Origin: an uncultured Gammaproteobacteria bacterium
Lineage (GTDB): Bacteria > Patescibacteriota > Microgenomatia > UBA10105 > UBA927
DNA length: 64,000 bases
Assembly (NCBI GenBank): GCA_964397755.1
Contig: CAYNJY010000003.1
Location: 5,923-69,922, forward strand
Direction of reading: 5' to 3'
The notes under the pieces: generated by a model
Seen by the model: only the letters and a program-made list of their open reading frames with translations
Told to the model about the DNA's origin: nothing
Databases searched by the model: none
Part shown: piece by piece, positions 16,582 to 36,976 of the stretch
How the letters are laid out: the number at the start of each line of letters is the position of its first letter
Position numbering within the stretch: position 1 is the first letter of the stretch
Program-made: the position numbers and the translations under genes

Positions 16582-16591
16582 GATAGTCACT

Positions 16592-20004: not shown

Positions 20005-20013
20005 CAAGAGATC

Positions 20014-20553: not shown

Positions 20554-20580
20554 CGACCTCAACCGAGGTCGCTTTTTTGT
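20554..20580 (+). terminator. intrinsic terminator/attenuator CGACCTC-aacc-GAGGTCG + CTTTTTTGT in the rplC leader
   Basis: Perfect 7-bp stem, 4-nt loop, T-rich tail; ends 11 nt before rplC ATG. Confidence 0.6.
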
Positions 20581-20590
20581 GAAAAACAGT

Positions 20591-21220
20591 ATGATCAGCG
20601 CAATTCTTGGAACAAAGATCGGACAAACCCAAACGTTTACTGACGACGGTCGGCGAATTCCTGTGACGATCATTCAGGCCGGTCCATGTTGGATTACCCA
20701 TATTGATACGCAGTCTGGATATACCAACATCCAGCTTGCGTTTGGAAGTATGAAAAATGTATCTAAACCAATGGTGGGACATTTAAAAAAAGCGGGGTTG
20801 GACACAAAGCCCCGCTTTTTGCGGTCTGTTCGGGTCGCTGATGCCGCGGCTGTGGGAGATCTTGCGCTCGGAGCTGAAATAAAAGCCGGCGATGTGTTTG
20901 CTGAGGGAGATCAGATTCGCGTGACGGGCACGTCTAAAGGTAAAGGTTTTGCCGGAGTGGTCAAGCGCCATGGATTTGCCGGCGGTCCGCGAACCCACGG
21001 TCAATCTGATAGAGAAAGAGCACCGGGCTCAATAGGCCAAACCACCACCCCGGGACGGGTATATCGCGGCAAGCGGATGGCCGGCCGCATGGGAGGAAAA
21101 ACGGTGACCGTGCGAAACCTTACTGTTGTTGCGATTGATAGGGAAAAGAACGTATTAACAGTGAAGGGACTCGTACCAGGAACAAGGCAGGGGCTCCTGG
21201 TTATTTCAAAAGAGGGATAA
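20591..21220 (+). CDS. rplC: 50S ribosomal protein L3
   Basis: L3 homology from MISAILGTKIGQTQ; ORF 20540 start lies upstream of the terminator, so ATG 20591 preferred. Confidence 0.93.
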   Translation: MISAILGTKIGQTQTFTDDGRRIPVTIIQAGPCWITHIDTQSGYTNIQLAFGSMKNVSKPMVGHLKKAGLDTKPRFLRSVRVADAAAVGDLALGAEIKAGDVFAEGDQIRVTGTSKGKGFAGVVKRHGFAGGPRTHGQSDRERAPGSIGQTTTPGRVYRGKRMAGRMGGKTVTVRNLTVVAIDREKNVLTVKGLVPGTRQGLLVISKEG

Positions 21221-21224
21221 GTGT

Positions 21225-22040
21225 ATGGCGCGACTAATAAAAAAACAACCAAAACGAACGAAAAAGACGAAGAAGACACCGAACGTCAGAAAAGGCGTGA
21301 AGAAGACGGTGTCGATGGTACACAGAGTATCGTCTTCAGAGGTTGCAAAAGAACCTTCAGGATCAGAGAAAGGCCCGAAGGTACCCGTCGTTCATGTTGA
21401 TGGAAAAGTCGTGGGACGGACCACGCTACCGACGAAACTTTTTGCCGCAAAGATAAATGCGCCACTCCTTGCACAGGCAGTGCGTGTACGCCTTGCAAAT
21501 CAGAGGATGGGGAACGCGTCGACAAAGACTCGCGGAGAGGTAGAAGGGTCGACACGGAAAATCTACCGACAAAAAGGAACGGGACGGGCACGACATGGAG
21601 CAATCCGTGCCCCGATATTTGTCGGGGGTGGCGTCGTTTTTGGACCAAAGCCCAGGGATTATTCCCTGAAACTTTCAAAAGGTATGCGTCGAAGTGCGCT
21701 TGCTTCCGCATTGACGAGTAAACTCGCAGAAGGAGGTATAACCATTGTCAGTGGTTTGGCAGTTCTTCCACCAAAGACGAGAGTATTTGCAAAAATGTTG
21801 TCTCTATTGGGCGTCCCGCGGCCGGTTTTACTCATTACGTCCCCTGTGGTTGATACGATGGTGCGGGCGTGTCGCAATATTCCCCAGGTTGACCTTCTGC
21901 CGATACAGCAACTAGCCGCGTACGACGTGCTGTCGCATAGAAGTATTGTGTTTATGAAGGAAGCGGTAGACGAATCAAGAAGGCTGCTTCTAAAAAAAAC
22001 CAGCCACCATGAAGGCGGTACACCGAATGCGCACGTATGA
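21225..22040 (+). CDS. rplD: 50S ribosomal protein L4 with ~50-aa lysine-rich N-terminal and ~25-aa C-terminal extensions
   Basis: Core L4 block [26 protein letters not shown]. Confidence 0.9.
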
Positions 22041-22336
22041 AACACATTGTGAAGCGACCACTCCTGACTGAGAAGACGCTCGCACTCGCGAGCCGCGGGT
22101 GGTATACATTTGAGGTTGATAAAGATGCAACGAAGGAGCGTATCAAGCGTGCAGTAGACGCGCTTTTTAACGTGAAGGTTATCGACGTTCGGACGATTTC
22201 TACCTCCGGAAAGACCAGGCGCGTCGGGAGACTCATGCGAACTGTGGCGACATCAGGATACAAAAAAGCACTCGTGCGACTTGCGAGTGGGCATCGCATT
22301 GATGCGTTCGAAGCGACGTCGGTAGAGAAGAAATAA
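22037..22336 (+). CDS. rplW: 50S ribosomal protein L23
   Basis: L23 homology. Confidence 0.93.
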
Positions 22337-22344
22337 CTACGTCT

Positions 22345-23103
22345 ATGAAAACTGTTATGCTACGAAGACTCCACGCGATTCTCCCCAAGAAATCAGGGAG
22401 AGACATGCATGGACACGTGACGGTCCGCCATCAAGGCGGAAGGGAAAAGCGATACTATCGCGTAGTGGACTGGCGTCGTGACAAGACCGGTGTTCCAGCA
22501 CGAGTCATTAGTATAGAATACGATCCGAATCGATCCGCACAGATTGCGCTTCTAGCCTATAGAGATGGTGAGAAGCGTTATATTTTATCGCCAGAAGGAC
22601 TGAGAGTTGGTCAAACGGTTCTGGCTGGGGAGACCGCTGATATCAAACTAGGGAACACGCTGAAAATGCGGTATATGCCGGTGGGAACAGCGGTTCACAA
22701 CGTTGAAATGAAAAAAGGGAGAGGCGGTCAAATGGTTCGGAGTGCAGGTGCTGCTGCGACGGTACTTGCCAAGGATGGCAATACGGTACAGCTGAAGCTT
22801 CCTTCAGGAGAAGTTCGGGTATTCGATGCAGAGTGTATAGCAACAGTGGGACGCGTTGGCAATATTGAATGGAAGAATCGAGTTCTCGGAAAGGCAGGGC
22901 GTGCACGCCACATGGGACGACGGCCGTCTGTACGGGGAGTAGCGCAAAACCCCAGGTCGCATCCACACGGTGGCGGCGAGGGCAGAAGCGGTATAGGGAT
23001 GAGCTCACCGAAGAGTCCATGGGGTAAGCCAACGTTAGGCAAGAGAACAAGAAAGCGGAGAAAGTATAGTGATCGATTTATCCTAGAGCGGAGGAAAACC
23101 TAG
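22345..23103 (+). CDS. rplB: 50S ribosomal protein L2 (N-terminus ~20 aa shorter than E. coli L2)
   Basis: [13 protein letters not shown]..., [14 protein letters not shown] motifs. Confidence 0.93.
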
Positions 23104-23117
23104 CTACCCCGCGATTC

Positions 23118-23408
23118 GTGTCTATGGGAAGATCATCAAAAAAAGGACCACATATTGATCAGAAGCTTCATGCGAAAGTCATGAAGCAGAAAGCGGGCGG
23201 AGACAGGAGCCCGATTAAGACGTGGAGTCGGGGGTCAACTATTCCGCCTGAGTTCGTCGGTCACCGGTTCGCAGTCCATAACGGCAGGATATTTATTGAG
23301 GTATCTATTACAGAAACGATGGTTGGACACCGATTGGGGGAGTTTTCGCCGACACGACTGTTTCGGGGACATGGCCAAGTAACAAAAAGAACGCTTGAAA
23401 AAACGTAG
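23118..23408 (+). CDS. rpsS: 30S ribosomal protein S19
   Basis: S19 homology; ends with TAG stop. Confidence 0.94.
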
Positions 23409-23494
23409 TAATTTGGGTACTCGTAACGAGGCATGAGTGGACGTACATGAACTTTCTTACCAAGTAACGAAGTGAGCACGTAACTAAAAAATCT

Positions 23495-23878
23495 ATGGAA
23501 TATACGGCGACAGCAAAATACGTACGAATCAGTCCGCGCAAGATGCGGCTTGTTGCTCGCGCCTTCCGGATGCTTCCAGCTGAAAAAGCGCTTGCCAAGC
23601 TTCGTGCCCTACAGAAGCGAGCTTCTCATCTTCTCGCTCCGGTCGTCGCGTCTGCACTCGCGAATGCGAAGCAGAAAAACGCTGATACAGCAACACTTTA
23701 CCTTGCGCGACTTGAGATCATGGGAGGACCGACGATGAAACGGTGGCGGTCGGTGTCTCGAGGGATGGCACATGGCTACAAAAAGCGAATGACGCACATA
23801 CGGGTTGTGTTGTCAGACGAGATTACTATACAAGAGTCCGACAAATCCGGACATATAAACAAACTCGACAACTTGTAG
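23495..23878 (+). CDS. rplV: 50S ribosomal protein L22
   Basis: L22 homology; TAG stop. Confidence 0.93.
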   Translation: MEYTATAKYVRISPRKMRLVARAFRMLPAEKALAKLRALQKRASHLLAPVVASALANAKQKNADTATLYLARLEIMGGPTMKRWRSVSRGMAHGYKKRMTHIRVVLSDEITIQESDKSGHINKLDNL

Positions 23879-23899
23879 TAGTTGTTTATTTTTCGACGT

Positions 23900-24574
23900 A
23901 TGGGTCAAAAGATTCATCCGCATGCATTCCGATTGGGTCCCATGTTCACATGGTCGTCCCGGTGGTACGCGGATAATAAACGGTACAGTGAGCTCTTGCG
24001 ACACGATCTTATGCTTCGCAAAGAGTTGTTTGGGCGGCTCAAATCTGCAGGACTCGCTCAAGTTGAGATTGAGCGGTCCATCAATAAAGTAAAAGTGATG
24101 CTCCACGTTGCCCGTCCTGGAGTCGTGATTGGTCGGGGCGGGACCGGACTTGAGGAAGTGAAGAAATTTATAGAGAAAATACTCAGAGCCGCAGAGAAGA
24201 GAAAGCCAGAAGAAGCAGGGAAAGTAAAAGTTGAAGTAGTGGTGGAACCAGTCAAAGAGCCAAGTTTGTCAGCATTATTAGTTGCGACAATGATCTGCGA
24301 CCAGCTCATAAAGCGTTTTCCGTACAAGCGCGCCTGTAATCAAGCGATGGATCGAGTGATGAGTGCAGGAGCTCAGGGCGTTCGGATCAAACTAGCGGGT
24401 CGAATCGCCGGAGCTGAAATTTCCCGGCGTGTGATCTTTAAAGCAGGGTCAATACCACTCTCGTCAATCCGAGCAGAGGTGGACTTTGCGGAAGTACCGG
24501 CACTTACGAAGTCTGGTTACATTGGGGTAAAGGTATGGATAAGTAAAAAAGGGTTAGACTATGTTGGCGCCTAA
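23900..24574 (+). CDS. rpsC: 30S ribosomal protein S3
   Basis: MGQKIHP...KH domain; ATG 23900 within TTG-start ORF 23882. Confidence 0.94.
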
Positions 24575-24968
24575 ACGAGCAAAACATAGAAAAGCATTCC
24601 GCGGAAAACGGCGGGGACTGTCAGAACGTGGTTCGGAACTTGTTTTTGGAGACATTGGCCTCAAAGCAGTATCGCCTGGATGGGTTGGGAGCCGGCAGAT
24701 TGAGTCTGCCAGACGCGCTCTTACCCATGCAATCCGTCGCGGCGGTCGCGTGTGGATACGGATTTTTCCCGATAAACCGATCACCAAAAAGCCGCCGGAA
24801 ACGCGAATGGGCAGCGGGAAAGGCGACGTTTTTGAGTATGTCGCGGTTGTCCGGCCAGGACGAGTGCTGTACGAAATGGGAGGAGTCACACTCGAGCTTG
24901 CGAAAGAAGCGATGCGCCTTGCCGCGGCAAAACTTTCTGTCAGAACGAAGATTATCACAAAGGAGTGA
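24561..24968 (+). CDS. rplP: 50S ribosomal protein L16
   Basis: [11 protein letters not shown]... L16 homology. Confidence 0.94.
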
Positions 24969-25189
24969 TCATGAAGAAATCCGAAAAAAAACAGTTCCAT
25001 GGCTTGAAGATCGAGGAGCTTCAGTTGAAGGTACGTGAGTTTCAAAGCATGCTTGCCAAAGAGCGTTTGAGTTTGGTCCAGAAAAAATCAAAAAATACTC
25101 GTTCGGTCAGAATGCTTCGCCGTACGCTCGCAGTCATACAGACGATTCTCCGAGACATAGAGCTCAGAAAAGGAGCGTCAAAGGAGTAA
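24965..25189 (+). CDS. rpmC: 50S ribosomal protein L29
   Basis: L29 homology, overlaps rplP stop. Confidence 0.9.
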
Positions 25190-25192
25190 CGT

Positions 25193-25456
25193 ATGGAAAA
25201 GAAAGCAGGTATCAGAGGAACGCAGCGCAGAACAATGGTTGGAACTATCGTTTCAGCAACAATGGTCAGTACCGTCGTTGTCGCTGTCGAACGTTTTTCG
25301 AAACACCCGCGTTACAAAAAGATTGTTCGCAGAACAAAAAAATTCCCTGCTCATAACACAGCGTTCAATCTGACTGCCGGAGACAAGGTTAAAATTGCCG
25401 AAACGAAGCCGTTGAGTAAAACGAAACACTTTGAGGTGATAGAGAAGCTCTCATAG
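25193..25456 (+). CDS. rpsQ: 30S ribosomal protein S17
   Basis: S17 homology. Confidence 0.92.
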   Translation: MEKKAGIRGTQRRTMVGTIVSATMVSTVVVAVERFSKHPRYKKIVRRTKKFPAHNTAFNLTAGDKVKIAETKPLSKTKHFEVIEKLS

Positions 25457-25476
25457 AGAGGAGCAAAACACACGCT

Positions 25477-25851
25477 ATGATTCAGAGAAGAACATCGCTC
25501 ACTGCCGCTGACAATAGCGGCGTGCAGAAGATGGTGGTTATCCATCTGTACGGCGCATCGAAGCGTACGTGGGCGTACGTGGGCGATACCGTTCAGTGTG
25601 TGATCAAAAAAGCAGATCCCGGAGGTATAGTTAAAGAAGACGAGCTTGTGCCAGTCGTGATCGTTCGTACGAGAAAGGAATATCGACGAGCTGACGGCTC
25701 CTATATTCGGTTTGACAATAACGCAGGAGTTGTTATCGACAATGCAAAAGACAAAAATCCACGGGGGACACGCGTCTTTGGGCCAGTAGCGCGCGAGCTC
25801 AAAGATCGAGGATTTGATAAAATTGTCAGTCTCGCGGAGGAAGTGTATTGA
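25477..25851 (+). CDS. rplN: 50S ribosomal protein L14
   Basis: L14 homology. Confidence 0.95.
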   Translation: MIQRRTSLTAADNSGVQKMVVIHLYGASKRTWAYVGDTVQCVIKKADPGGIVKEDELVPVVIVRTRKEYRRADGSYIRFDNNAGVVIDNAKDKNPRGTRVFGPVARELKDRGFDKIVSLAEEVY

Positions 25852-25888
25852 TATGACGATCTAAAGAAACATACGACCTTGAATATAT

Positions 25889-26194
25889 ATGAAACTAAGA
25901 AAGGGAGACACAATTATCGTAACCGTCGGAAAAGATAAAGGCCGTAAGGGAAAAGTAGAGGCAGTCTACCGAAGAAATGGCGCGGTGCTCGTGCCAGAGG
26001 TCAACGTCTTTAAGCGGCATATGAAAAAAAAGGACGAGAAACAGCAGGGTGGTATTATTGCGATCCCGAGAGCTATCGACGCCTCGAAAGTATCGCTCGT
26101 GTGTCCATCGTGCGGGAAACCAACGCGCGTAGGCTATCTTCTGTTAAAGTCTGAGAAAATTCGCATCTGCAAAAAATGTGGGAAGAAAGTATGA
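25889..26194 (+). CDS. rplX: 50S ribosomal protein L24 (KOW) with C-terminal C4 zinc-ribbon extension
   Basis: KOW motif GDTIIVTVGKDKGRKGKV; C-terminus CPSCGKP...CKKCGKK. Confidence 0.9.
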   Translation: MKLRKGDTIIVTVGKDKGRKGKVEAVYRRNGAVLVPEVNVFKRHMKKKDEKQQGGIIAIPRAIDASKVSLVCPSCGKPTRVGYLLLKSEKIRICKKCGKKV

Positions 26195-26751
26195 ATAGAC
26201 TACAAGACCGGTATCGCACAGAGATCGTTCCGGCCCTTATGAAAGAGTTTGAGATTACCAATCCTCTCGCTGTGCCAAAACTCTCAAAGATTGTTGTAAA
26301 CTGCGGTTTGGGAGAGGCACTCCGAGATCAGAAGGTCATTGAGAAAATGGCAGCACAACTTGGCGTAATAACAGGGCAAAAGCCAAAAGTTACCAGAGCA
26401 AAACGGGCAATTTCGACATTCAAGCTGAGGGCGGGTGATGTAGTTGGACTCAAGGTTACACTACGCGGGAAGCGCATGTATGATTTTATAACCAAGTTCG
26501 TTGGCATTGCGTTGCCGCGCGTACGCGATTTTCGGGGTGTGGCCAGAAGAGGATTTGACGGTAGGGGCAACTATACCATTGGGATATCCGAGCAAACAAT
26601 ATTCCCGGAGCTCGAGTACAGTCTGATCGATAAATCACGAGGTTTTGAGGTAACATGTGTGACAACGGCAAAAACCGACGAACAAGCAGAAAAACTTTTG
26701 GTACTCCTCGGTTTACCCTTTGAGAAAGGACACTATGGCAAAAACATCTGA
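26191..26751 (+). CDS. rplE: 50S ribosomal protein L5
   Basis: L5 homology; ATGA overlap with rplX. Confidence 0.93.
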
Positions 26752-26920
26752 CATCGTGAAATTTGCCAAACCGCAAAAGTATCGCGTGCGCAATCGCAAT
26801 CGATGCGCACTCTGTGGGAGGTCACGCGCATACATGCGTATGTTTGGGATGTGCCGGATCTGTTTTCGGAAGTTTGCTCATAAAGGAGAGCTCCCGGGAG
26901 TGATCAAGGCATCGTGGTAA
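26735..26920 (+). CDS. rpsN: 30S ribosomal protein S14 type Z (zinc-binding)
   Basis: 61 aa, C-x2-C-x12-C-x2-C; SD GAAAGGA before ATG 26735. Confidence 0.93.
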
Positions 26921-26924
26921 CGTT

Positions 26925-27317
26925 ATGGTATCTGATCCAATCGGTGACATGCTTGCACAACTAAAGAACGCGGCGCGTGCGGGTTTAAAAGTCATTGAGA
27001 TACCACATTCAAAAATGAGAGTAGCAGTAGCGAAGATTCTCCAAGAGGAGAGGTATGTAACGGATACAAAAATAGTGGATGGGCGTCCGGCTCCAAAACT
27101 TCGTTTGACGATTGCGTATAATGGTCGGCGTCCGGTCCTTACGGATCTGCGCCGTGTCAGTAAACCAGGGCTTCGGTTGTATGTAAAAAAGTCAGACATC
27201 GCACCGGTCATGGGAGGTATGGGAGTTGCAATCCTTTCAACTCCACAAGGAGTCATGACCGGTAAGGAAGCGCGTGCAAAAGGTATAGGTGGCGAGCTCC
27301 TGTGCGAAGTGTGGTAA
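26925..27317 (+). CDS. rpsH: 30S ribosomal protein S8
   Basis: S8 homology. Confidence 0.94.
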   Translation: MVSDPIGDMLAQLKNAARAGLKVIEIPHSKMRVAVAKILQEERYVTDTKIVDGRPAPKLRLTIAYNGRRPVLTDLRRVSKPGLRLYVKKSDIAPVMGGMGVAILSTPQGVMTGKEARAKGIGGELLCEVW

Positions 27318-27325
27318 AGAAATCT

Positions 27326-27889
27326 ATGTCTCGTATCGGATGTACCCCTATTGCTGTTCCAGAGGGAATTGACGTTTCTCTTGAGCGTCATACGGTTGTG
27401 ATAAAAGGACCAAAAGGGGAACTACGGCGCTCCGTTCCTGAAAGTTTATCTGTAACACTCAAGGAGGGGTACGTTCGAATATCGCGTATCGTTGATGATA
27501 AATCTGTGCGAGCTCTGCACGGTGCGTATCGAGCGCATCTTGCAAACGATATTGTCGGCGTTCGGATGGGATGGAGTAAAACCTTAGAGCTCTCAGGCGT
27601 CGGGTACCGCGCGGCGATGGTCGGGTCGAATCTTGAACTTACCATTGGTTTCTCCCATCCTGTTACGATCGCCCCGCCGCCGGGCATTACCCTTGCCATT
27701 GTTGAGGGTGCAATAATCGTTTCAGGTATAGATAAGACCGTTGTCGGTCAAGCCGCATCAAACATTCGTGCAGTGAAAAAACCAGAGCCCTACAAAGGGA
27801 AAGGAATCAGGTACAAAGGAGAACATATTCGAAGGAAGGCAGGGAAATCCGCCAAAGCAGTCGGCGGGGCACCAGGAGGAAAACCATGA
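27326..27889 (+). CDS. rplF: 50S ribosomal protein L6
   Basis: L6 homology; ATG 27326 within ORF 27302. Confidence 0.92.
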   Translation: MSRIGCTPIAVPEGIDVSLERHTVVIKGPKGELRRSVPESLSVTLKEGYVRISRIVDDKSVRALHGAYRAHLANDIVGVRMGWSKTLELSGVGYRAAMVGSNLELTIGFSHPVTIAPPPGITLAIVEGAIIVSGIDKTVVGQAASNIRAVKKPEPYKGKGIRYKGEHIRRKAGKSAKAVGGAPGGKP

Positions 27890-28215
27890 GTACACGCCGT
27901 GAGGGACGGTTGCGGAGAAAATCGCGCATTCGGGCAGTAGTCCGGGGGACCGGGGACCGGCCTCGTTTTTCGGTGTTTCGGTCGAACGAAGCTCTGAGTG
28001 CGCAGCTTATTGATGACGCCGCCAGGGTGACCCTCGCCGCGTGTACGGTCAAGGGGAAGGGAGTTTCTAGTGGTAAAGAGCTTGGTCGTCGGATCGCAGA
28101 AGCGGCCAAGAAGAAAAAGATATCTCGGGTAGTTTTTGACCGGAGCGGCTACCGGTACCACGGGGTAGTACAAGAGATCGCCGACGCCGCTCGGGAAGGA
28201 GGGCTTGTCCTATGA
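27886..28215 (+). CDS. rplR: 50S ribosomal protein L18
   Basis: L18 homology. Confidence 0.93.
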   Translation: MSTRREGRLRRKSRIRAVVRGTGDRPRFSVFRSNEALSAQLIDDAARVTLAACTVKGKGVSSGKELGRRIAEAAKKKKISRVVFDRSGYRYHGVVQEIADAAREGGLVL

Positions 28216-28661
28216 GGAGGGAAGGAACCGGAGAGTTTGAAGAAAAAGTGGTTCAGGTAAACCGCGTTTCCAAAAAAACCAAAGGAGGGAATAAAATCGG
28301 TTTCTCTGTCCTCACCGTAGTGGGTGACAGGAAGGGGAGGGTCGGTGTCGGTTTAGGGAAAGCACCGGATGTCTCTTCCGCTGTACGGAAAGCGGTTTCC
28401 TACGCAAAAAAGCACCTTCTTACGGTTCCCATGAGAGGAATGACAATCCCTCACCAGGTCCAGGTGAAGCTTGGCGCCGCGAGGGTGCTCCTGCGGCCGG
28501 CTCCTGCCGGAACAGGTGTTATCGCCGGCGGCGCGGTGCGGGCGGTTGTGGAAGCCGCTGGGATTAGAGATATCGTCTCAAAAATTTTAGGAACGAAGAA
28601 TCAGGCATCGAACGTATACGCGACGATGGAAGCACTGAAAAAATTCAAAATTCAAAATTAA
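28212..28661 (+). CDS. rpsE: 30S ribosomal protein S5
   Basis: S5 homology. Confidence 0.95.
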   Translation: MRREGTGEFEEKVVQVNRVSKKTKGGNKIGFSVLTVVGDRKGRVGVGLGKAPDVSSAVRKAVSYAKKHLLTVPMRGMTIPHQVQVKLGAARVLLRPAPAGTGVIAGGAVRAVVEAAGIRDIVSKILGTKNQASNVYATMEALKKFKIQN

Positions 28662-28690
28662 AAAGTCAAACTTTTAAACTTCTAACGTCT

Positions 28691-29122
28691 ATGAATCTCT
28701 CACAGTTACCAAGAATCGTTGGGAGAAGGAAGAAGCGAGTGGGGCAGGGCCATGGCTCCGGCAGGGGGAAAACTGCCGGACGCGGAACGAAGGGGCAGAA
28801 AGCGCGCGGGACCATTCGGCTCGGCTTTGAGGGCGGGCAGCTGCCGCTTATTAAGCGACTGCCTCTTCTTCGCGGGAAAGGGAAGGAGAAGCCACGCGCT
28901 CTCAAAGCGGTTGCGGTTCGCATAGGGAGACTGAGCGTTCTTCCGAAGGGATCCGACGTCACCACCGAAACACTCCGCACATATAAGATAATCAGTACAT
29001 CGGAAGCGCGGGTAAAGCTTGTCTCGGGCGGAAGTCTCTCTGTCCCGCTCACGGTGAAGCTTCCCTGTTCAAAAGGAGCAAAAGAGGCTGTTGAGAAAGT
29101 TGGTGGAATGGTGGTAGGATAG
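28691..29122 (+). CDS. rplO: 50S ribosomal protein L15
   Basis: L15 homology; no rpmD (L30) between rpsE and rplO. Confidence 0.94.
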
Positions 29123-29135
29123 TGATTGTTTTTCT

Positions 29136-30428
29136 ATGAACTCGATTCTGTCTCCTCTGGTACATAGCTGGCAAACGCCGGAGCTCCGCCGCAAGATCGT
29201 TCTTACCCTAATACTTTTCGTTATCTTTCGACTCTTTGCCCACATTCCGATTCCTGGCGTTGACGGAGCGAAACTCCGAGGACTCTTTGCGCAGAACCAG
29301 TTTCTAGGGCTTCTTGACATATTCTCCGGCGGAACACTGGTGAATTTTTCGGTCATGGCGCTCGGGCTCAACCCGTATATCAACGCCTCGATCATTTTGC
29401 AGCTTTTGACCATTGTGTTTCCGAAGCTTGAAGAGTTGTCCAAGGAAGGCGAGTACGGTCGGGAAAAAATTAACCAGTATACGAGGTTTCTCACGGTGCC
29501 GCTTGCGGCGATTCAGTCGATCGGGATGTACGCTATTTTAAAAAATGCGGGCATTATGGGCGCCATTTCCCCGGTTACCCTCCTTTCCCTTATTGTTACC
29601 ATGACGGCCGGAACGCTACTCGTCATGTGTCTCGGAGAGCTCATCACTTAGTATGGTATAGCTATCGGCGTCTCACTTCTTATTTTTGCAGGGATTGTCG
29701 GGCGCCTTCCGGTGGTACTCGGACAAACGGTAAGTGTCGTTACAGCGGAGTCATTCACCAACTTCCTTCTTTTTGGAGTCCTCGCGGCGATTATGATCGG
29801 AGCGACTGTGTTTGTCAACGAAGCGGTTCGTCGGATTACTGTCCACTACGCCCGTCGCATCCGTGGGAACAAAGTGTACGGCGGCAACGTATCGTACTTA
29901 CCCCTTCGGGTGAACCAAGCGGGCGTTATCCCGATCATATTCGCGGTTTCGCTGGTTCTGTTGCCGTCTCTCGTCGGAGGATTCCTTGAACAGCTCGGTT
30001 CCCCGGTTTTCCTGAATATCGGCAGACTTCTGACGCGCGTTTTTAATCCCCAGAGCATCTCGTATAACCTTATCTATTTTTTTCTGGTCATTGGGTTCAC
30101 CTACTTTTATACGGCAATAACGTTTAATCCCAAGAAGATCGCGGAAGAAATACAAAAGTACGGCGGCTTTATTCCCGGCATTCGCCCGGGAACACCAACT
30201 GCGAGCTACCTCAACTACATACTCACAAGAATCACGCTTGCTGGCGCGCTCTTTCTCGGATTCATCGCAACTTTCCCGTCCTTTGCTCGTGGCATATCTG
30301 GGGTCACGACACTTCTTGTTGGCGGAACAGGAGTTCTCATTGTGGTTTCAGTGGTTCTGGAGACAGTCAAAACACTTGAAGCGCAACTGGTGATGAGAAA
30401 TTATGACGGATTCCTGAAGGAGGGATAA
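29136..30428 (+). CDS. secY: preprotein translocase SecY, interrupted by an in-frame TAG at 29649-29651 (ORFs 29136-29651 and 29712-30428 share one frame)
   Basis: Continuous SecY homology across the stop ([21 protein letters not shown] versus E. coli [22 protein letters not shown]). Confidence 0.85.
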
Positions 30429-30508
30429 ATCACTTTAACCTTTAAACGTTAAAAATAAAACTCGTTTTTGAAACGTTTGAAGTTTACAGTTTGAATTGTA
30501 CCGTTCTT

Positions 30509-31102
30509 ATGCATATTGTCTTCTATGGTCCCGAAGGTTCCGGTAAAGGGACACAGGCCAAATTGTTGGCCGAAAAGTTAGGGCTGCCGATTTTGACGTC
30601 GGGAGATCTGGTGCGCGACGCTGCAGCACATGACAAGGGAATTATCGGTGACGTTTGCAGGCTCGCGCTCGCCGAGGGCAAGTATGTGGCAGACAGCGAG
30701 ATGTTTGTCCTGTGGAAATGGCGCCTCAAAGAGGACGATGCAAAAGATAATTGGATCATGGACGGATTCCCGAGGAACGTCGAGCAGGCCAAGTTTTTGG
30801 ACGATAAGCTCGATAAGTACGGGTATAACGTCGATAAGGTTTTCTATCTCAACTTGAGCGAAGAAGAGTCATACCGGAGGCTCATTAAGCGCGGTCGGCC
30901 GCTTCACAAAGGGAGTAGCGAACTCCATGATTCGCCAGAAAGAATTAAGCAAAGGCTGGAAATATATAAAGAAGGGGAGAGGGACGTGCTGGATTATTAC
31001 AGAAAAAAAGGGGTGCTCATCGAGATCAACGCCGACCAGACGATTGAAGATGTTCATCGCGACATCGTGAACACCATGCAACAAAATTCAGAAATACCGT
31101 GA
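30509..31102 (+). CDS. adk: adenylate kinase
   Basis: P-loop GPEGSGKGTQA, LID and NMP-binding regions; ATG 30509 within TTG ORF 30491. Confidence 0.93.
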   Translation: MHIVFYGPEGSGKGTQAKLLAEKLGLPILTSGDLVRDAAAHDKGIIGDVCRLALAEGKYVADSEMFVLWKWRLKEDDAKDNWIMDGFPRNVEQAKFLDDKLDKYGYNVDKVFYLNLSEEESYRRLIKRGRPLHKGSSELHDSPERIKQRLEIYKEGERDVLDYYRKKGVLIEINADQTIEDVHRDIVNTMQQNSEIP

Positions 31103-31803
31103 TGGATGCCTCCGTAGGAAAGCAACTCCAAATCGCCATCGACGGACCAGTCGGCGCGGGGAAAAGTGATATCTCAAAACGACTCGCAAGAAAATTGGGA
31201 CTCGTTTATCTCCACACCGGCGCTATGTACAGGGCACTTGCGCTTGTGTGTTTCAGACAGAACATTCCCTACAAAGATGTCGGTCGGGTGGTGCCACTTC
31301 TTGCAAAATACTTTATTGACCTCGTAGAGCCACAAGAGGGAAGTAATCGAGAGTATAGAGTGCTCCTGAGTGGTGAGGATATCACCGAGTTACTTTTTTC
31401 TCCAGCAATAGATACAGGTGCATCGGACGTAAGCACGATTCCACAGGTGCGACAGTTTATGGTAAAACGACAGCAAGAGATGGCAACGGGCAAGCGAGTG
31501 GTCATGGAGGGACGAGACATAGGACTTCGGGTACTGCCCCAAGCTGACATAAAAATTTATTTGACGGCAAGCGTAGAAGAGCGGGCAAAACGACGCTGGC
31601 TCCAGTACAGGGAGAAAGGCAAGCCTACATCTTATGAGGAGACACTGAAGGACACCAAAGCTAGGGATCTGCAGGATACCACCCGCGCAGTTGATCCACT
31701 TCAGAAACTCTCTGATGCGTGGGAGTTGAACACGACGGGAATGACCCAGGATGAGGTCATTGCCGCAATACAAAAGGAACTCACAGATCGAGGGATTGTA
31801 TGA
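31099..31803 (+). CDS. cmk: cytidylate kinase
   Basis: IAIDGPVGAGKSD P-loop and Cmk homology. Confidence 0.9.
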   Translation: MMDASVGKQLQIAIDGPVGAGKSDISKRLARKLGLVYLHTGAMYRALALVCFRQNIPYKDVGRVVPLLAKYFIDLVEPQEGSNREYRVLLSGEDITELLFSPAIDTGASDVSTIPQVRQFMVKRQQEMATGKRVVMEGRDIGLRVLPQADIKIYLTASVEERAKRRWLQYREKGKPTSYEETLKDTKARDLQDTTRAVDPLQKLSDAWELNTTGMTQDEVIAAIQKELTDRGIV

Positions 31804-32579
31804 ATGAGGATGTCCAAGAGAAAATCCGCACGATGCAAGAGGGTGGTGCAAAACTAGGAGAAATTTTGCGCGAGCTCCTTGAGGCAGCCCAGCCAGGAGT
31901 GTCCCTTCTGAGCCTTGAAGAGCTTACTACTAACCGCATTCGCGCGGCAGGAGGGACCCCTTCATTTCAGACTGTGGAAGGCTATAGGTGGGCGACGTGC
32001 CTCTGCGTCAACGAGGTGGTTGTGCACGGTATTCCAACGGCGTACGCGCTTACGGAGGGGGATCTTCTTACGATAGACGTCGGCATGCTCTACAAAGGTT
32101 TTCATACCGACACCGCATGGACGAAAATAGTACACAGTGAAAAGCTGGAAACCAAAGATGTGGAGGAATCAAAGAAAGAACGATTTCTGAACATAGGTCA
32201 AGATGCCCTTTGGCAAGCTATCGCCCAAGCCCGACCCGGTAACCGCGTCGGGCATATCTCTCAAGCGATTCAGAAAATTATTGAAAAAGCGGGCTATAGC
32301 ATCGTCCCATCGCTTGTGGGCCACGGCGTAGGGAAAAAACTCCATGAGCCACCGCAAATTCCGGGGTTTCTTAAGAAACGACGTGAGGACACCGAGTCGC
32401 TTCGCTCAGGTATGACCCTCGCCATAGAGGTAATTTACGCCTTGGGAGCTGGGACAACTACGTACGAGAGTGACGGTTGGTCGATAGCCACCCGCGACCG
32501 TTCACTCTCTGCGGTATTCGAGCACACTGTGGCAATTACTGATGCGGAGCCTGTTGTATTGACCCACACCAGGAAATAA
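31800..32579 (+). CDS. map: methionine aminopeptidase type I
   Basis: MAP homology with metal-ligand residues. Confidence 0.93.
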   Translation: MNEDVQEKIRTMQEGGAKLGEILRELLEAAQPGVSLLSLEELTTNRIRAAGGTPSFQTVEGYRWATCLCVNEVVVHGIPTAYALTEGDLLTIDVGMLYKGFHTDTAWTKIVHSEKLETKDVEESKKERFLNIGQDALWQAIAQARPGNRVGHISQAIQKIIEKAGYSIVPSLVGHGVGKKLHEPPQIPGFLKKRREDTESLRSGMTLAIEVIYALGAGTTTYESDGWSIATRDRSLSAVFEHTVAITDAEPVVLTHTRK

Positions 32580-32639
32580 GGTAGAATCAAGAGTATTCGT
32601 CGGGGTTATCCCCGTCGTTTTTTACTGCGTTTTTCAGGT

Positions 32640-32858
32640 ATGGTACATCAGGGAAATATTGAAGTTGAGGGAGAAGTGGTTGAGTGTTTACCCAATACAC
32701 TGTTTCGGGTGAAGCTACCAAACGGTAGAATTGTACTGAGTCATTTGTCTGGGAAGATGCGACTCCATTTTATCCGTATCATGCCCGGTGATCGAGTGAA
32801 GCTTGAAATGACGCCCTACGACGCGACAAAAGGCAGGATAACGTATAGATTAAAATAA
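32640..32858 (+). CDS. infA: translation initiation factor IF-1
   Basis: S1-like IF-1 homology. Confidence 0.95.
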
Positions 32859-32939
32859 CTCAAAAATTCAAACTTGAAACTTTAAAATTGAAATTTCAAA
32901 AAAGTTTAAAGTTTACAGTTTTAAGTTTTAATTAGTTTT

Positions 32940-33053
32940 ATGAAGGTTCGAGCAAGCGTGAAGCCAATGTGTAGAAAGTGCACAGTTGTTCGCCGGCGTG
33001 GCCGGGTCTATATCACGTGCGACAACCAGAAACATAAACAAAGGCAAGGGTGA
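32940..33053 (+). CDS. rpmJ: 50S ribosomal protein L36 (37 aa; below the ORF-track length cutoff)
   Basis: Translates to [37 protein letters not shown], zinc-ribbon C-x2-C...C-x?-H pattern. Confidence 0.9.
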
Positions 33054-33073
33054 GATAGTTTACGTAAGTTTTT

Positions 33074-33487
33074 ATGGCTCGTATTGCTGGAGTAGAAATA
33101 CCGACTGAAAAACGACTGGATATCGCCCTCACCTACGTGTACGGAATTGGGCGATCAAACGTCGTTGGCCTTCTTCACTCCGCCAATCTTGAAACAAACC
33201 GGCGAGTGAAAACGCTCACCGATGAGGAGATCAGTAGAATTAATAAGGCGCTTGAGAAATACGTCGTCGAAGGAGATCTGCGAAGGCAGGTCTCCGATAG
33301 TGTTAAGCGACTCATCGAGATTAAATCGTATCGCGGCGCGCGCCACGTTCGGAAACTCCCCGTTCGAGGTCAGCGCACGAGGACCAATGCACGAACCAAG
33401 CGAGGAAAAAGAGTGACCGTTGGGGCGCTCAAGAAAGAAGATCGGGTGAAACTTGGGTCGAAAGCGCCGGAAGAAGAAAAGAAATAA
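33074..33487 (+). CDS. rpsM: 30S ribosomal protein S13 (C-terminal basic extension)
   Basis: S13 homology. Confidence 0.95.
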   Translation: MARIAGVEIPTEKRLDIALTYVYGIGRSNVVGLLHSANLETNRRVKTLTDEEISRINKALEKYVVEGDLRRQVSDSVKRLIEIKSYRGARHVRKLPVRGQRTRTNARTKRGKRVTVGALKKEDRVKLGSKAPEEEKK

Positions 33488-33502
33488 TACGCTACATTCT
33501 CT

Positions 33503-33874
33503 ATGGCTGTACAGAAACAAAATCGGAGCGTTGCGAAGGGTAAAGTGTTCATCACCGCGACCTTCAATAACACACTCGTGACCATTACCGACATGGAAGG
33601 GAATACGCTGTTTTGTGGCTCATCGGGACTCGTTGGGTTTAAGGGGGCGAGAAAAGCCACACCGTATGCAGCAACCACCGCTGTTGAAGCCGTTGCTCGC
33701 AAAGCGCAGGATAACGGCCTCAGAGATGTGGAGGTATATATCAAAGGTCCAGGAGCAGGGAGGGATGCGGCGCTACGGGCGCTACGCGCTGTTGGACTTG
33801 CGATAACGCTGATTGCTGATATAACACCGATTCCGCATAACGGGGTTAGGCCGAAGAAGAAACGAAGAGTATAG
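33503..33874 (+). CDS. rpsK: 30S ribosomal protein S11
   Basis: S11 homology. Confidence 0.95.
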   Translation: MAVQKQNRSVAKGKVFITATFNNTLVTITDMEGNTLFCGSSGLVGFKGARKATPYAATTAVEAVARKAQDNGLRDVEVYIKGPGAGRDAALRALRAVGLAITLIADITPIPHNGVRPKKKRRV

Positions 33875-33879
33875 TTTCT

Positions 33880-34500
33880 ATGTCACGATACACCGGTCCG
33901 AAAAATAGACTTGCACGGCGGGAAGGAGCAGATCTTGGGCTCAAGACCGTTGGTTCACACGCCCACGCCCAACTCCTCCGGCGGCTCAATGTGCCGCCAG
34001 GGCAGCATGGTAGCAAACGAAAGAGAAAAACCTCCGAGTACGCAATGCAGCTTAGAGAGAAGCAAAAAGCGCGTCGAACGTATGGACTCAGTGAGCGTCA
34101 ATTTCGACGGTATTTTGAAATGGCAAAAAAATGGCGAGGGAATACCGGAGATATGCTTCTACAGTTTCTCGAGCGTCGCCTTGACAACACGCTCTACCGT
34201 CTCAGTTTCGCTCCAACACGAGCAGCAGCCCGCCAGCTTGTTTCCCACCGTCATGTCGTGGTTGACGGAAAGCGCGTTGGCATCCCCTCATATTCCGTGC
34301 ATGCGGATCAGGTAATAACCTTATCTTCCAAAGCGCTGGAGATCCCGGCAATCAGACGGTTGCTCGATGAGAAGACCGTGGTTTTGCCAGAATGGCTTGA
34401 CCGGAAGGCAGGAGCGGGAAAGGTTCTTCGTTTACCCGAGAGAGCAGACGTAAAAGAAGACATAAGCGAACAAGTGGTTATCGAGTTCTATTCTCGATAG
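33880..34500 (+). CDS. rpsD: 30S ribosomal protein S4
   Basis: S4 homology. Confidence 0.95.
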   Translation: MSRYTGPKNRLARREGADLGLKTVGSHAHAQLLRRLNVPPGQHGSKRKRKTSEYAMQLREKQKARRTYGLSERQFRRYFEMAKKWRGNTGDMLLQFLERRLDNTLYRLSFAPTRAAARQLVSHRHVVVDGKRVGIPSYSVHADQVITLSSKALEIPAIRRLLDEKTVVLPEWLDRKAGAGKVLRLPERADVKEDISEQVVIEFYSR

Positions 34501-34516
34501 AAAGGAGCACGAGAGC

Positions 34517-35458
34517 TTGCGCTTCCGTGACGTATGTATGAATGAGCCTAATTTCAATATCAAACAGGAGGAAGAGAAGCCGGACTACGGCGAGTTCGTT
34601 ATCGAGCCTCTCGAACAAGGCTACGGGCATACCCTTGGAAACAGCCTCCGTAGGGTTCTGTTATCGTCTCTTTCGGGCGTTTCCTTAACATCGGTGAAAG
34701 TGAGCGGCGTCACGCATCAATACTCAACTGTTCCGGGCCTGAAGGAAGACGTCGTTGAGCTCATCCTCAACTTGAAAAAGGTCAGACTCATCCTCGAGGG
34801 CGTCGAGAGTGCGACACTGACGTTATCAAAAAAGGGCCCCGGAGAAGTCCGCGCAGGTGACATAGAGGCTCCGGCGGGTGTTCGCATCGTCAATCAAGAC
34901 TTGGTCTTAGGGACGCTTGCAGATAAGAAGGCGAGTCTCGAGCTTGAGTTAATGGCCGAACGTGGATTTGGCTTCGTTCCCGCTGAAGAGAAGACGGTTG
35001 ATGAGCTCGGGAGAATAGCCATGGACGCGCTCTTTTCTCCTGTGACGCGCGTCAACTATCGTGTCGAGGCGACTCGCGTCGGGCGCATGACGAACTTAGA
35101 CAAGCTTGTGATCGCGATTTGGACTGACGGAACAGTCGCGCCAGCAGATGCGCTCAGACAAGCTGCAAAGATTCTTATCTCGTACTTGGTTCAGGTAGTG
35201 GAGCCCAAGGCGAAAGTTGCAGAAGAGACAGTTGCTGTCACGCCGACTGTTTCTGACGAGGTTTTAAAAATGCGCGTCGAGGAGCTTGATATCCCAACGC
35301 GTATCGTCAACGCCCTCGCACGGGGAGGGATAGAAACCATCGGTCAACTTCTCGGAACTCTGCGAACAGAGCTTCTCAAGATTAAAAATCTTGGGAACAA
35401 ATCGCTCGCCGTTGTTGAAGAGAAGCTCCGGGAGAAGGGTGTGGCCCTGACCGTATAA
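34517..35458 (+). CDS. rpoA: DNA-directed RNA polymerase subunit alpha
   Basis: EPLEQGYGHTLGNSLRRVLLSS motif; TTG 34517 lies 8 nt after AAGGAG, alternative ATG at 34538. Confidence 0.93.
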   Translation: MRFRDVCMNEPNFNIKQEEEKPDYGEFVIEPLEQGYGHTLGNSLRRVLLSSLSGVSLTSVKVSGVTHQYSTVPGLKEDVVELILNLKKVRLILEGVESATLTLSKKGPGEVRAGDIEAPAGVRIVNQDLVLGTLADKKASLELELMAERGFGFVPAEEKTVDELGRIAMDALFSPVTRVNYRVEATRVGRMTNLDKLVIAIWTDGTVAPADALRQAAKILISYLVQVVEPKAKVAEETVAVTPTVSDEVLKMRVEELDIPTRIVNALARGGIETIGQLLGTLRTELLKIKNLGNKSLAVVEEKLREKGVALTV

Positions 35459-35487
35459 AATCAATCTACAAGTGTGTAGATTTCTTT

Positions 35488-35943
35488 ATGCGTCATAGGT
35501 ATTTCGGCAAAAAACTTTCACGAACCACCAACGAGCGGAGAAGACTCCTCATGGTGTTAGCGCGCGAGCTTCTGACACACGGACGAATAAAAACAACGTT
35601 TGCAAAAGCCAAGGTGGTGCAAGCGTTGGTTGAGCGCTTGGTTACGAAAGCAAAGAAGGGAACACGTGCGTCGGTTCGGCAGGTAGAGAAAGTTTTGAGC
35701 GATGCCACGAGGGTGAAAATCCTTTTGGGTTGGGCAAAAACGCGCTTCGGGAACCGCATAAGCGGATATACGCGGATCGTAAAACTTGGTCAGCGGACAG
35801 GAGATAGCAGTGAAGAAGTTATTCTCTCGTTTGTTGACGACGTGCCTGCAGTACCGGAGCCCAAAGGGAATGAGACCGAAAAAAAAGTAGTTCCCAAGGT
35901 CCGACCTAAGAAACGCGTCAAAAAAAAGAAATCAGCGAAATAA
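35488..35943 (+). CDS. rplQ: 50S ribosomal protein L17 (C-terminal lysine-rich extension)
   Basis: L17 homology. Confidence 0.93.
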   Translation: MRHRYFGKKLSRTTNERRRLLMVLARELLTHGRIKTTFAKAKVVQALVERLVTKAKKGTRASVRQVEKVLSDATRVKILLGWAKTRFGNRISGYTRIVKLGQRTGDSSEEVILSFVDDVPAVPEPKGNETEKKVVPKVRPKKRVKKKKSAK

Positions 35944-35946
35944 CGT

Positions 35947-36381
35947 ATGTGTATGCAGGCACTGACTACACCGACAAAAGCAAGCGATATTAAGCGTTCA
36001 TGGCATCTCGTCGACGCGAAAGACAAGGTGCTTGGGCGCGTAGCAGTCACGATTGCCCAAAAGCTTACGGGAAAGGGAAAACCGTATTTTGTCCGAAACC
36101 TTGATTGCGGAGATTTCGTCGTTGTCACAAATGCGAAATATGTTGCTGTTACCGGCCATAAAGAAAAGGAGAAACTGTATAGTCGCTACTCTGGATACCC
36201 AGGAGGGCTCAAACAAAAGCCTCTCTGGAAGGTTCGGGAAGAGAGACCAACTGAGATAATCCGCCATGCTGTCTGGGGGATGCTGCCAAAGAACAAGCTA
36301 CGAGACAGGGTCGTTACGAGGCTCTACATATTCCCAGAGGCTGACCATCCCTATCAAAGCAAGTTCAATAGTACATACTAA
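35947..36381 (+). CDS. rplM: 50S ribosomal protein L13
   Basis: L13 homology. Confidence 0.93.
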   Translation: MCMQALTTPTKASDIKRSWHLVDAKDKVLGRVAVTIAQKLTGKGKPYFVRNLDCGDFVVVTNAKYVAVTGHKEKEKLYSRYSGYPGGLKQKPLWKVREERPTEIIRHAVWGMLPKNKLRDRVVTRLYIFPEADHPYQSKFNSTY

Positions 36382-36384
36382 CAC

Positions 36385-36873
36385 ATGTCAGATAAAGTAA
36401 AAACAAAGGACCAAGAGTCAACAAAATTTGAGACAGAGCGGCCGCAATACTATGAGGCAGTTGGTCGTCGTAAGGAGGCAACCGCTCGGGCGCGACTGTA
36501 TGTGGTGAAGAACGACGCAGTTACCGCGGCGGGAGCGTCGCTTTCGAAAGGAGACATGCTCGTCAACGGAAAACCGATTGAGACACACTTTTCGGGAGAA
36601 GTGTACAAAAAAATGTACGTGGAGCCATTCCGCACAACGAACACCATTGGTCGGTTTGCCACCACCATTACCGTCACCGGCGGCGGGCTTTCCGGACAGT
36701 TGGGAGCCGTGATTCTGGCGTTAAGTCGAGCGCTCTTGAACGTTGACAAAGAAAAATTCCGGCCCATCCTCAAAAAACGCGGGTTTCTCACCCGCGACAG
36801 CCGCATCAAAGAACGCCGCAAAGCCGGCCGTGCAGGGAAAGCAAGGGCAAGGAAGCAGTCTCCCAAGAGATAA
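36385..36873 (+). CDS. rpsI: 30S ribosomal protein S9
   Basis: S9 homology ending with basic RKxxKR tail. Confidence 0.94.
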   Translation: MSDKVKTKDQESTKFETERPQYYEAVGRRKEATARARLYVVKNDAVTAAGASLSKGDMLVNGKPIETHFSGEVYKKMYVEPFRTTNTIGRFATTITVTGGGLSGQLGAVILALSRALLNVDKEKFRPILKKRGFLTRDSRIKERRKAGRAGKARARKQSPKR

Positions 36874-36930
36874 CAATACTGGTAGCTTTCTTGACCGAAG
36901 CCCCGTCGCGGTAGCCCGCAAACCCTAAGT

Positions 36931-36959
36931 TTCAACTCCCGCCGCTGATGCTATATGAT
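36931..36959 (+). promoter_or_regulatory. candidate promoter for the ATPase gene: TTCAAC-17 nt-TATGAT
   Basis: Hexamers at 36931-36936 and 36954-36959. Confidence 0.35.
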
Positions 36960-36976
36960 AAAAGAATGAAGCCCAT

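What the first reader, a model, noticed from the sequence alone, without database searches (positions are those of the whole stretch)
29640..29660. In-frame amber (TAG) codon inside essential secY at a conserved position
The two secY ORFs (29136-29651, 29712-30428) are in the same frame. Translating through the TAG at 29649-29651 gives ...[22 protein letters not shown]..., which aligns with the conserved GEQITE(R)[14 protein letters not shown] block of SecY. There is no frameshift and nothing is missing. TAG is used as a genuine stop for rpsS and rplV in this same window, so global reassignment is unlikely. The remaining options are a sequencing or assembly error, a recent inactivating mutation in an essential gene, strain heterogeneity, or programmed readthrough/suppression.
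Basis: seen in the sequence. Interest (0 to 1): 0.7.

Follow-up and report, generated by a model that had tools for sequence, protein, structure and literature searches.

The report
Local sequence error splitting secY
The stop codon inside the essential secY gene is really in this sequence. It sits in a 60-base patch of eight odd base changes that a second assembly of the same organism lacks, so it is almost certainly an assembly or sequencing error, not biology.

Summary
secY (29136-30428, +) carries one in-frame TAG at 29649-29651, with no frameshift, at SecY profile position 92.

The TAG is not an isolated change. An independent public assembly of the same Candidatus Gottesmanbacteria population (Logan contigs of run ERR3478686) matches 41.6 kb of the window without gaps. 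Eight of the 21 mismatches fall within 60 bases (29606-29665) around the TAG.

That assembly reads GAG (Glu) and encodes an intact 430-aa SecY. In the window the patch also changes W165C, G176A and N177I, residues invariant in 120 of 120 closest SecYs. The patch has 7 transversions and 1 transition. The 13 scattered differences elsewhere have 11 transitions and 2 transversions and are mostly synonymous.

TAG ends 15 of 70 genes in the window, and no other gene has an internal stop. The split SecY fragments are on record from only one NCBI contig of 79,063 bp.

Best reading: a local assembly or read error in the deposited metagenome-assembled genome; the true codon is GAG. A real defective minority allele is possible but unlikely. 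Recoding or suppression is not supported. Read mapping would settle it.

The parts
29136..30428 (+). secY gene, 430 codons, interrupted by one in-frame TAG. It lies between rplO (28691-29122) and adk (30509-31102) in the ribosomal-protein cluster.
   Evidence: Pfam SecY 8.3e-101 over profile 1-306 when read through. It is 99% identical to the intact 430-aa P0001. It aligns end to end with solved SecY structures 2zjs_Y and 5eul_Y.
29649..29651 (+). In-frame TAG, codon 172. The same-species Logan contig L001 has GAG (Glu) here.
   Evidence: This column is E in 106 of the 120 closest SecYs, with S, A or T in the rest, and never a stop.
29606..29665 (+). 60-base patch holding 8 of the 9 mismatches between the window and L001. 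Given as window/L001: 29606 G/A (synonymous), 29618 A/C (synonymous), 29630 T/G (W165C), 29649 T/G (E172 to stop), 29657 T/G (synonymous), 29660 A/T (synonymous), 29662 C/G (G176A), 29665 T/A (N177I).
   Evidence: Ungapped 19,459-base alignment and codon effects. W165, G176 and N177 are invariant in 120 of 120 relatives. The chance of 8 of 21 mismatches falling within 60 bases of 41.6 kb is about 2e-14.
29136..29651 (+). N-terminal SecY fragment ORF, 171 aa, as it would be called from the window.
   Evidence: This exact product is on record only from NCBI, on one contig of 79,063 bp.
29712..30428 (+). C-terminal SecY fragment ORF, 238 aa. It starts at the first in-frame GTG, 20 codons after the TAG, and would lack the conserved [20 protein letters not shown] segment.
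   Evidence: This exact product is on record only from NCBI, on the same 79,063-bp contig. By eye, no purine-rich ribosome-binding site precedes it.

Best explanation
The TAG is a local error in the consensus of a deposited metagenome-assembled genome of a Candidatus Gottesmanbacteria (CPR) bacterium. About 60 bases of consensus (29606-29665) were taken from poorly supported sequence, most plausibly the low-quality 3' tail of a read or an unsupported assembler path. This introduced eight substitutions, one of which turns GAG (Glu172) into TAG. The organism's real secY is the intact 430-codon gene seen in the independent assembly: TGG at codon 165, GAG at 172, GGT-AAC at 176-177. Shown here: the patch, its statistics, its effects on the protein, the intact allele in a second assembly, and normal TAG usage. 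Inferred: that the patch lacks read support.
For: (1) Logan contig L001 from run ERR3478686 aligns without gaps to window 19789-39247 with 9 mismatches, 8 of them in 29606-29665. It encodes an intact SecY, P0001.
(2) Logan contigs L002 and L003 cover another 22 kb with 12 scattered mismatches and no cluster.
(3) Background differences are 11 transitions and 2 transversions: 8 synonymous, 3 conservative missense and 2 intergenic. That is natural polymorphism under purifying selection. The patch has 1 transition and 7 transversions (Fisher p = 0.002) and includes a nonsense change plus three changes at residues invariant in 120 of 120 relatives.
(4) The gaps between successive mismatches are 12, 12, 19, 8, 3, 2 and 3 bases, so they get denser towards the 3' end and then stop abruptly. 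This is the pattern of a decaying read tail (the link to read quality is inference).
(5) The rest of secY differs by one synonymous transition, so the gene shows no general decay.
(6) secY is the only one of 70 genes with an internal stop. Stop usage is TAA 33, TGA 22, TAG 15. TAG-ended ribosomal genes end at complete Pfam profiles.
(7) The split products exist in the 15-billion-protein collection only from one NCBI contig of 79,063 bp, whereas the neighbouring L15, RpoC and MiaB-like proteins are shared by NCBI and Logan.
(8) Such 'local assembly errors' are a documented class in metagenome-assembled genomes. One curated 1.13-Mb CPR genome had 13, about one per 87 kb (PMC7111523).
Against: No reads could be inspected, so lack of read support is inferred and not shown. 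Four of the 8 changes are synonymous and 5 of 8 are at third codon positions, slightly more than random error predicts (p = 0.11 and 0.09). That could hint at some real divergence. The window and the Logan contigs are not identical elsewhere (13 SNPs), so they represent different consensus choices or different samples of a polymorphic population, and a real minority haplotype cannot be excluded. Modern assemblers usually reject single-read errors at good coverage.
Confidence: 0.8

Rival explanations
1. The patch is a real but non-functional minority allele (strain heterogeneity). A subpopulation, or relic DNA from dead cells, carries a secY hit by a burst of clustered mutations, and the assembler followed that haplotype through a bubble.
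For: The population is polymorphic: 13 natural-looking SNPs separate the window from the Logan contigs over 41.6 kb, so assemblers do choose between alleles here. There is a slight excess of synonymous and third-position changes in the patch.
Against: The allele has a stop codon plus W165C, G176A and N177I at positions invariant in 120 of 120 relatives. secY is single-copy in the window and essential by established knowledge, so such a lineage could not persist. The 7:1 transversion to transition ratio is unlike the background. 13% divergence confined to 60 bases inside 19 kb that otherwise has one mismatch has no ordinary mutational explanation. The split products are seen on only one contig anywhere.
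Confidence: 0.12
2. The patch is a chimeric or recombinant tract from a divergent relative: either an assembler chimera between co-occurring Gottesmanbacteria or a short gene-conversion tract.
For: About 13% divergence in the patch is of the order of between-species divergence in this group. Several changes are at third codon positions.
Against: Every relative encodes W, G and N, and a sense codon, at the affected positions. The DNA of the two relatives fetched (L004 and L005, 82-84% identical proteins) has G, G, G, A where the window has T, T, C, T, and neither matches the window's patch as a whole. No donor sequence exists elsewhere in the window on either strand.
Confidence: 0.04
3. The TAG is decoded: programmed readthrough, a suppressor tRNA-CUA, pyrrolysine-type insertion, or a functional SecY split into two polypeptides.
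For: The reading frame is preserved and the downstream sequence is intact. Only the window could be searched for tRNAs, so a suppressor elsewhere in the genome is not excluded.
Against: The same species has GAG here, and none of the 120 closest SecYs, all full-length proteins, has a stop at this column. TAG ends 15 of 70 genes at complete domain models, and no other gene has an in-frame TAG. The window holds no tRNA-CUA and no pyl genes. Even if read through, the protein would carry three substitutions at invariant residues. The first restart codon is 20 codons downstream without an evident ribosome-binding site, which would delete a conserved segment.
Confidence: 0.02

Closest known systems
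Local assembly errors in metagenome-assembled genomes (Chen, Anantharaman, Shaiber, Eren and Banfield 2020, Genome Res 30:315, PMC7111523)
   Same: A short stretch of consensus differs from the true sequence while the flanks are perfect, and it yields an incorrect or truncated protein in a public record. The reported frequency (13 in a 1.13-Mb CPR genome) makes about one per 64-kb window unsurprising.
   Different: The defining criterion, that no read perfectly supports the consensus, could not be tested here. The errors illustrated in that paper often involve repeats or gaps, whereas this one is a pure substitution patch.
Nonsense pseudogene in a reduced symbiont genome
   Same: An in-frame stop truncates a conserved gene.
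   Different: The rest of the gene is identical to the intact allele (one synonymous difference). The lesion is eight clustered, mostly transversion changes. The gene is essential and single-copy in the window.
Amber suppression, pyrrolysine decoding and stop-codon reassignment (for example code 25, UGA = Gly, in Gracilibacteria/Absconditabacteria; the example is from my own knowledge)
   Same: An in-frame stop codon in a gene that otherwise looks functional.
   Different: The TAG is not conserved in orthologues. TAG is a frequent genuine terminator here. The window has no suppressor tRNA or pyl genes. The CPR recoding I know of concerns UGA, not UAG, and other lineages.
Diversity-generating retroelement or other targeted hypermutation
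   Same: A dense cluster of substitutions in a short tract.
   Different: The changes are not adenine-specific in either direction. No template repeat or donor exists in the window. No reverse transcriptase was found among the 42 ORFs I scanned with Pfam or in the Pfam families on record for the L001 gene calls; rpoB, rpoC and tuf were named from other evidence. The target is an invariant core motif of an essential protein.

Membership tests
SecY translocon subunit (Pfam PF00344) | Full-length collinear match to the SecY profile | tested here: met
   E = 8.3e-101 over profile 1-306 when read through. The two halves match profile positions 1-91 and 93-306. It also aligns end to end with solved SecY chains.
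SecY translocon subunit (Pfam PF00344) | Conserved gene position between rplO and adk at the end of the ribosomal-protein cluster | tested here: met
   rplO 28691-29122, secY 29136-30428, adk 30509-31102.
SecY translocon subunit (Pfam PF00344) | Intact conserved MWLGExITEYGIGNG motif, as required for a functional member | tested here: not met
   The window encodes [16 protein letters not shown] and N are invariant in 120 of 120 relatives. The same-species Logan allele meets this feature.
Programmed stop-codon readthrough or suppression (including pyrrolysine) | The in-frame stop recurs at the same position in orthologues or close relatives | tested here: not met
   The same-species contig has GAG. 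The 120 closest SecYs are all full-length proteins with E, S, A or T at this column.
Programmed stop-codon readthrough or suppression (including pyrrolysine) | A suppressor tRNA (anticodon CUA), or pylT/pylS, is present | tested here: inconclusive
   The only tRNA in the window is tRNA-Pro(GGG). No pyl genes appear among the annotated ORFs. The rest of the genome is not available.
Stop-codon reassignment (alternative genetic code) | The codon is absent or rare as a terminator and frequent in-frame at conserved sense positions | tested here: not met
   TAG ends 15 of 70 genes, several exactly at the end of complete Pfam profiles. secY is the only gene with any internal stop.
Local assembly error in a metagenome-assembled genome (PMC7111523) | The consensus in the region lacks perfect support by any read | not testable with these tools
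   There is no access to reads. The criterion is quoted.
Local assembly error in a metagenome-assembled genome (PMC7111523) | The discrepancy is confined to a short patch with perfectly matching flanks when compared with an independent assembly of the same population. This is my own operational criterion, not one from the paper. | tested here: met
   There are 8 mismatches in 60 bases, against 1 in the other 19,399 bases of L001 and 12 in a further 22 kb. P is about 2e-14.
Natural pseudogene or natural allele | The mutation spectrum and selective footprint resemble the background polymorphism of the population | tested here: not met
   The patch has 1 transition and 7 transversions and hits invariant residues. 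The background has 11 transitions and 2 transversions and is mostly synonymous. Fisher p = 0.002.
Diversity-generating retroelement target | Adenine-specific substitutions relative to a nearby template repeat, with a reverse transcriptase nearby | tested here: not met
   The substitutions involve all four bases. No repeat or donor exists in the window. No reverse-transcriptase domain was found among the 42 ORFs I scanned with Pfam or in the families on record for the L001 gene calls.

The most novel reading that the evidence does not exclude
The eight-change haplotype, including TAG, is real in living cells, and this Gottesmanbacteria lineage either reads through UAG in secY using a suppressor tRNA encoded outside the window or survives with a crippled Sec translocon as an obligate episymbiont.
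Probability: 0.02. Interest if true: 0.6.

Novelty: not a real feature. Interest (0 to 1): 0.07.

Why it matters
As biology it matters little: the organism almost certainly has a normal secY. As data quality it is a useful caution. A public genome record carries a falsely split essential gene, and the two fragments are already in protein collections as separate entries. That can depress completeness estimates and seed false 'pseudogene' or 'recoding' calls. It also shows that an in-frame stop in a core gene should be judged together with its neighbouring codons and, where possible, against an independent assembly. If the haplotype were real, it would be an unprecedented case of UAG decoding or Sec loss in a CPR bacterium, but nothing here supports that.

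Tried and rejected
- Collection scans for the patch with N at the eight variable positions, and for a nearby exact 60-mer, found nothing in genome contigs or metagenome contigs. No further independent copies of this species could be obtained that way.
- Exact-product look-ups of the 171-aa fragment, L15 and RNase Y returned 'not on record', although L15 is encoded on L001. That index is incomplete, so the absences are not informative.
- The NCBI 79,063-bp contig itself could not be fetched; only Logan contigs were returned.
- A paper search for the run accession ERR3478686 found nothing.
- Template switching or a quasi-palindrome origin is rejected. There is no donor on either strand in the window, and the window version folds less stably than the intact version (-23.8 against -32.3 kcal/mol).
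- A chimera with a related species is rejected: the patch matches neither relative's DNA and breaks invariant codons.
- DGR-type mutagenesis is rejected because the changes are not A-specific.
- A long-read error profile is unlikely, because there are no indels in 41.6 kb of comparison.
- Illumina A/C and G/T channel cross-talk (mechanism from my own knowledge) is inconclusive: by my hand count, 4 of the 8 changes are of that class, against about 2.7 expected by chance.
- A second secY copy was not found in the window. The rest of the genome cannot be tested.
- An Rfam scan of the window at gathering thresholds returned no family.

Full report
**1. What is in the sequence**

Window 29136-30428 (+) is a secY gene. 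It lies between rplO and adk at the end of a complete ribosomal-protein cluster.
- Translation gives 430 codons with a single internal stop, TAG at 29649-29651 (codon 172)...[28 protein letters not shown]....
- The part before the stop matches Pfam SecY profile positions 1-91 and the part after it matches 93-306. The TAG therefore occupies exactly one profile position, with no insertion, deletion or frameshift.
- The first-stage observation is confirmed as written.

**2. Which organism and which record**

- The closest SecY proteins are all Candidatus Gottesmanbacteria (CPR/Patescibacteria), at about 80% identity.
- One 430-aa protein, P0001, is 99% identical and intact.
- The gap of only 29 bases between rpsE and rplO leaves no room for L30, which fits a CPR genome (that CPR bacteria lack L30 is from my own knowledge).
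- The two SecY fragments that a gene caller would make from the window (171 aa and 238 aa) are on record in the 15-billion-protein collection, from NCBI only, on a single contig of 79,063 bp.
- The neighbouring L15, RpoC and a MiaB-like protein are recorded from both NCBI and Logan.
- So the window is a faithful copy of a deposited NCBI assembly, and the TAG exists in that one record.

**3. The decisive comparison**

P0001 is encoded on Logan contig L001 (run ERR3478686, 19,459 bases). L001 aligns to window 19789-39247 without a single gap and with 9 mismatches. Eight of the nine lie in 29606-29665:

| Window position | Window / L001 | Effect in window |
|---|---|---|
| 29606 | G / A | Thr, synonymous |
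| 29618 | A / C | Leu, synonymous |
| 29630 | T / G | TGG to TGT, W165C |
| 29649 | T / G | GAG to TAG, E172 to stop |
| 29657 | T / G | Gly, synonymous |
| 29660 | A / T | Ile, synonymous |
| 29662 | C / G | G176A |
| 29665 | T / A | N177I |

The ninth mismatch (29960) is a synonymous transition.

Two further Logan contigs from the same run give the background:
- L002 covers window 1947-14885 and has 6 mismatches.
- L003 covers window 44072-53313 and has 6 mismatches.
- In both, the mismatches are scattered and there are no gaps.

Outside the patch there are therefore 13 differences in about 41.6 kb:
- 11 are transitions and 2 are transversions.
- 8 are synonymous, 3 are conservative missense (I/T, S/N, L/S) and 2 are intergenic.
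- This is what natural polymorphism under purifying selection looks like.

The patch is different in kind:
- It has 8 differences in 60 bases (13%), with 1 transition and 7 transversions. Fisher p = 0.002 against the background.
- The chance of 8 of the 21 mismatches falling within 60 bases is about 2e-14.

**4. Effect on the protein**

In an alignment with the 120 closest SecYs:
- W165, G176 and N177 are invariant (120 of 120).
- Column 172 is E in 106, and S, A or T in the rest.
- Thermus and Geobacillus SecY structures show the same W...GE.IT.(Y/K)G(I/V)GNG motif.

So the window allele carries a stop and also three substitutions at invariant residues within 13 codons, while the remaining 400-odd codons are identical to the intact allele. 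This is neither an isolated nonsense mutation nor a decaying pseudogene.

**5. Tests of the alternatives**

*Code reassignment or suppression*
- Of 70 genes annotated in the window, 33 end in TAA, 22 in TGA and 15 in TAG. secY is the only one with an internal stop.
- TAG-ended rpsS, rplV, rplO and rpsK stop at the end of complete Pfam profiles.
- The only tRNA in the window is tRNA-Pro(GGG).
- No pyl genes or other recoding genes appear among the annotated ORFs.

*Split SecY*
- The first in-frame restart codon is a GTG 20 codons downstream, with no obvious ribosome-binding site.
- Using it would delete the conserved [20 protein letters not shown] stretch.

*Template switching or gene conversion*
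- No donor exists anywhere in the window on either strand.
- The window version folds less well than the intact version.

*Chimera with a related species*
- The DNA of two relatives (L004, L005) does not carry the patch.
- It agrees with L001 at all four amino-acid-changing positions.

*DGR-type mutagenesis*
- The changes involve all four bases.

*Second secY*
- There is none in the window.

**6. Most likely mechanism**

- The gaps between successive mismatches are 12, 12, 19, 8, 3, 2 and 3 bases. They become denser in the 3' direction and then stop abruptly.
- This pattern, the excess of transversions and the disregard for coding constraints are what the low-quality tail of a short read looks like. 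They also fit an unsupported assembler path that has been written into the consensus (inference).
- Chen et al. 2020 (PMC7111523) describe exactly this class of artefact. [quoted passage not shown] - They found 13 such errors in one 1.13-Mb CPR genome. One in a 64-kb window is therefore within expectation.
- I put this explanation at about 0.8.

**7. What remains open**

- I could not inspect reads. The window and the Logan contigs differ at 13 natural-looking sites, so they are not the same consensus.
- A real minority haplotype that an assembler happened to follow cannot be formally excluded (about 0.12).
- The mild excess of synonymous and third-position changes in the patch (p about 0.1) is the only observation that leans that way.
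- Such an allele would be non-functional in an essential, apparently single-copy gene, and it is seen on only one contig anywhere.
- I rate a chimera or conversion tract at about 0.04 and decoded TAG at about 0.02.

**8. Verdict**

- The correct sequence is that of L001: TGG at codon 165, GAG at 172, GGT AAC at 176-177.
- Interest is low.
- Read mapping over 29500-29800 would settle the matter in minutes.

Noticed in passing
window 9104-20004: The usual rpsL-rpsG-fusA-tuf operon is interrupted by about 6.5 kb of unrelated genes between rpsG (ends 10019) and fusA (starts 16580). These are an HhH-GPD glycosylase, two glucose/sorbosone-dehydrogenase-like proteins, a cupredoxin and a glyoxalase. 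On the opposite strand there are a DsbD-redoxin-thioredoxin fusion (563 aa) and a thioredoxin.
   Followed up: partly
window 1947-14885, 19789-39247, 44072-53313: Outside the secY patch, the window differs from Logan contigs of run ERR3478686 at 13 scattered sites with no indels. They are 11 transitions and 2 transversions: 8 synonymous, 3 conservative missense and 2 intergenic. This indicates genuine strain-level polymorphism of about 0.03% in this population.
   Followed up: yes
window 26738-26920 and 32940-33053: Small ribosomal genes rpsN (zinc-type S14, 61 aa) and rpmJ (L36, 37 aa) are present and match Pfam. They were not among the genes called on the Logan contig L001.
   Followed up: yes
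window 28662-28690: Only 29 bases separate rpsE and rplO, so there is no rpmD (L30) gene. This is consistent with the CPR affiliation (that CPR bacteria lack L30 is from my own knowledge).
   Followed up: no
window 43710-47909: An ABC-transporter ATPase is followed by four tandem paralogous ABC-2 membrane genes (PF06182), two of them with overlapping ORFs.
   Followed up: no
window 20342-20500: A 52-codon ORF sits between rpsJ and rplC. It is also called on the Logan contig and has no Pfam match. It is an unusual insertion at the start of the S10 operon.
   Followed up: no
window 61587-62036: The longest recJ ORF (738 aa, GTG start) overlaps the 5' end of the divergently oriented cca gene by 450 bases, and its DHH domain only begins at residue 230. 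The true recJ start is probably further downstream, or RecJ carries an unannotated N-terminal extension.
   Followed up: no
window 39668-39742: ARAGORN finds tRNA-Pro(GGG) on the minus strand, but the Rfam scan at gathering thresholds reported no family at all in the window, not even this tRNA.
   Followed up: no
window 1-64000: GC skew is positive in nearly every 2-kb bin and the cumulative skew rises steadily. 67 of the 70 annotated genes are on the + strand, so the whole window appears to lie on one replichore with genes co-oriented with replication.
   Followed up: no
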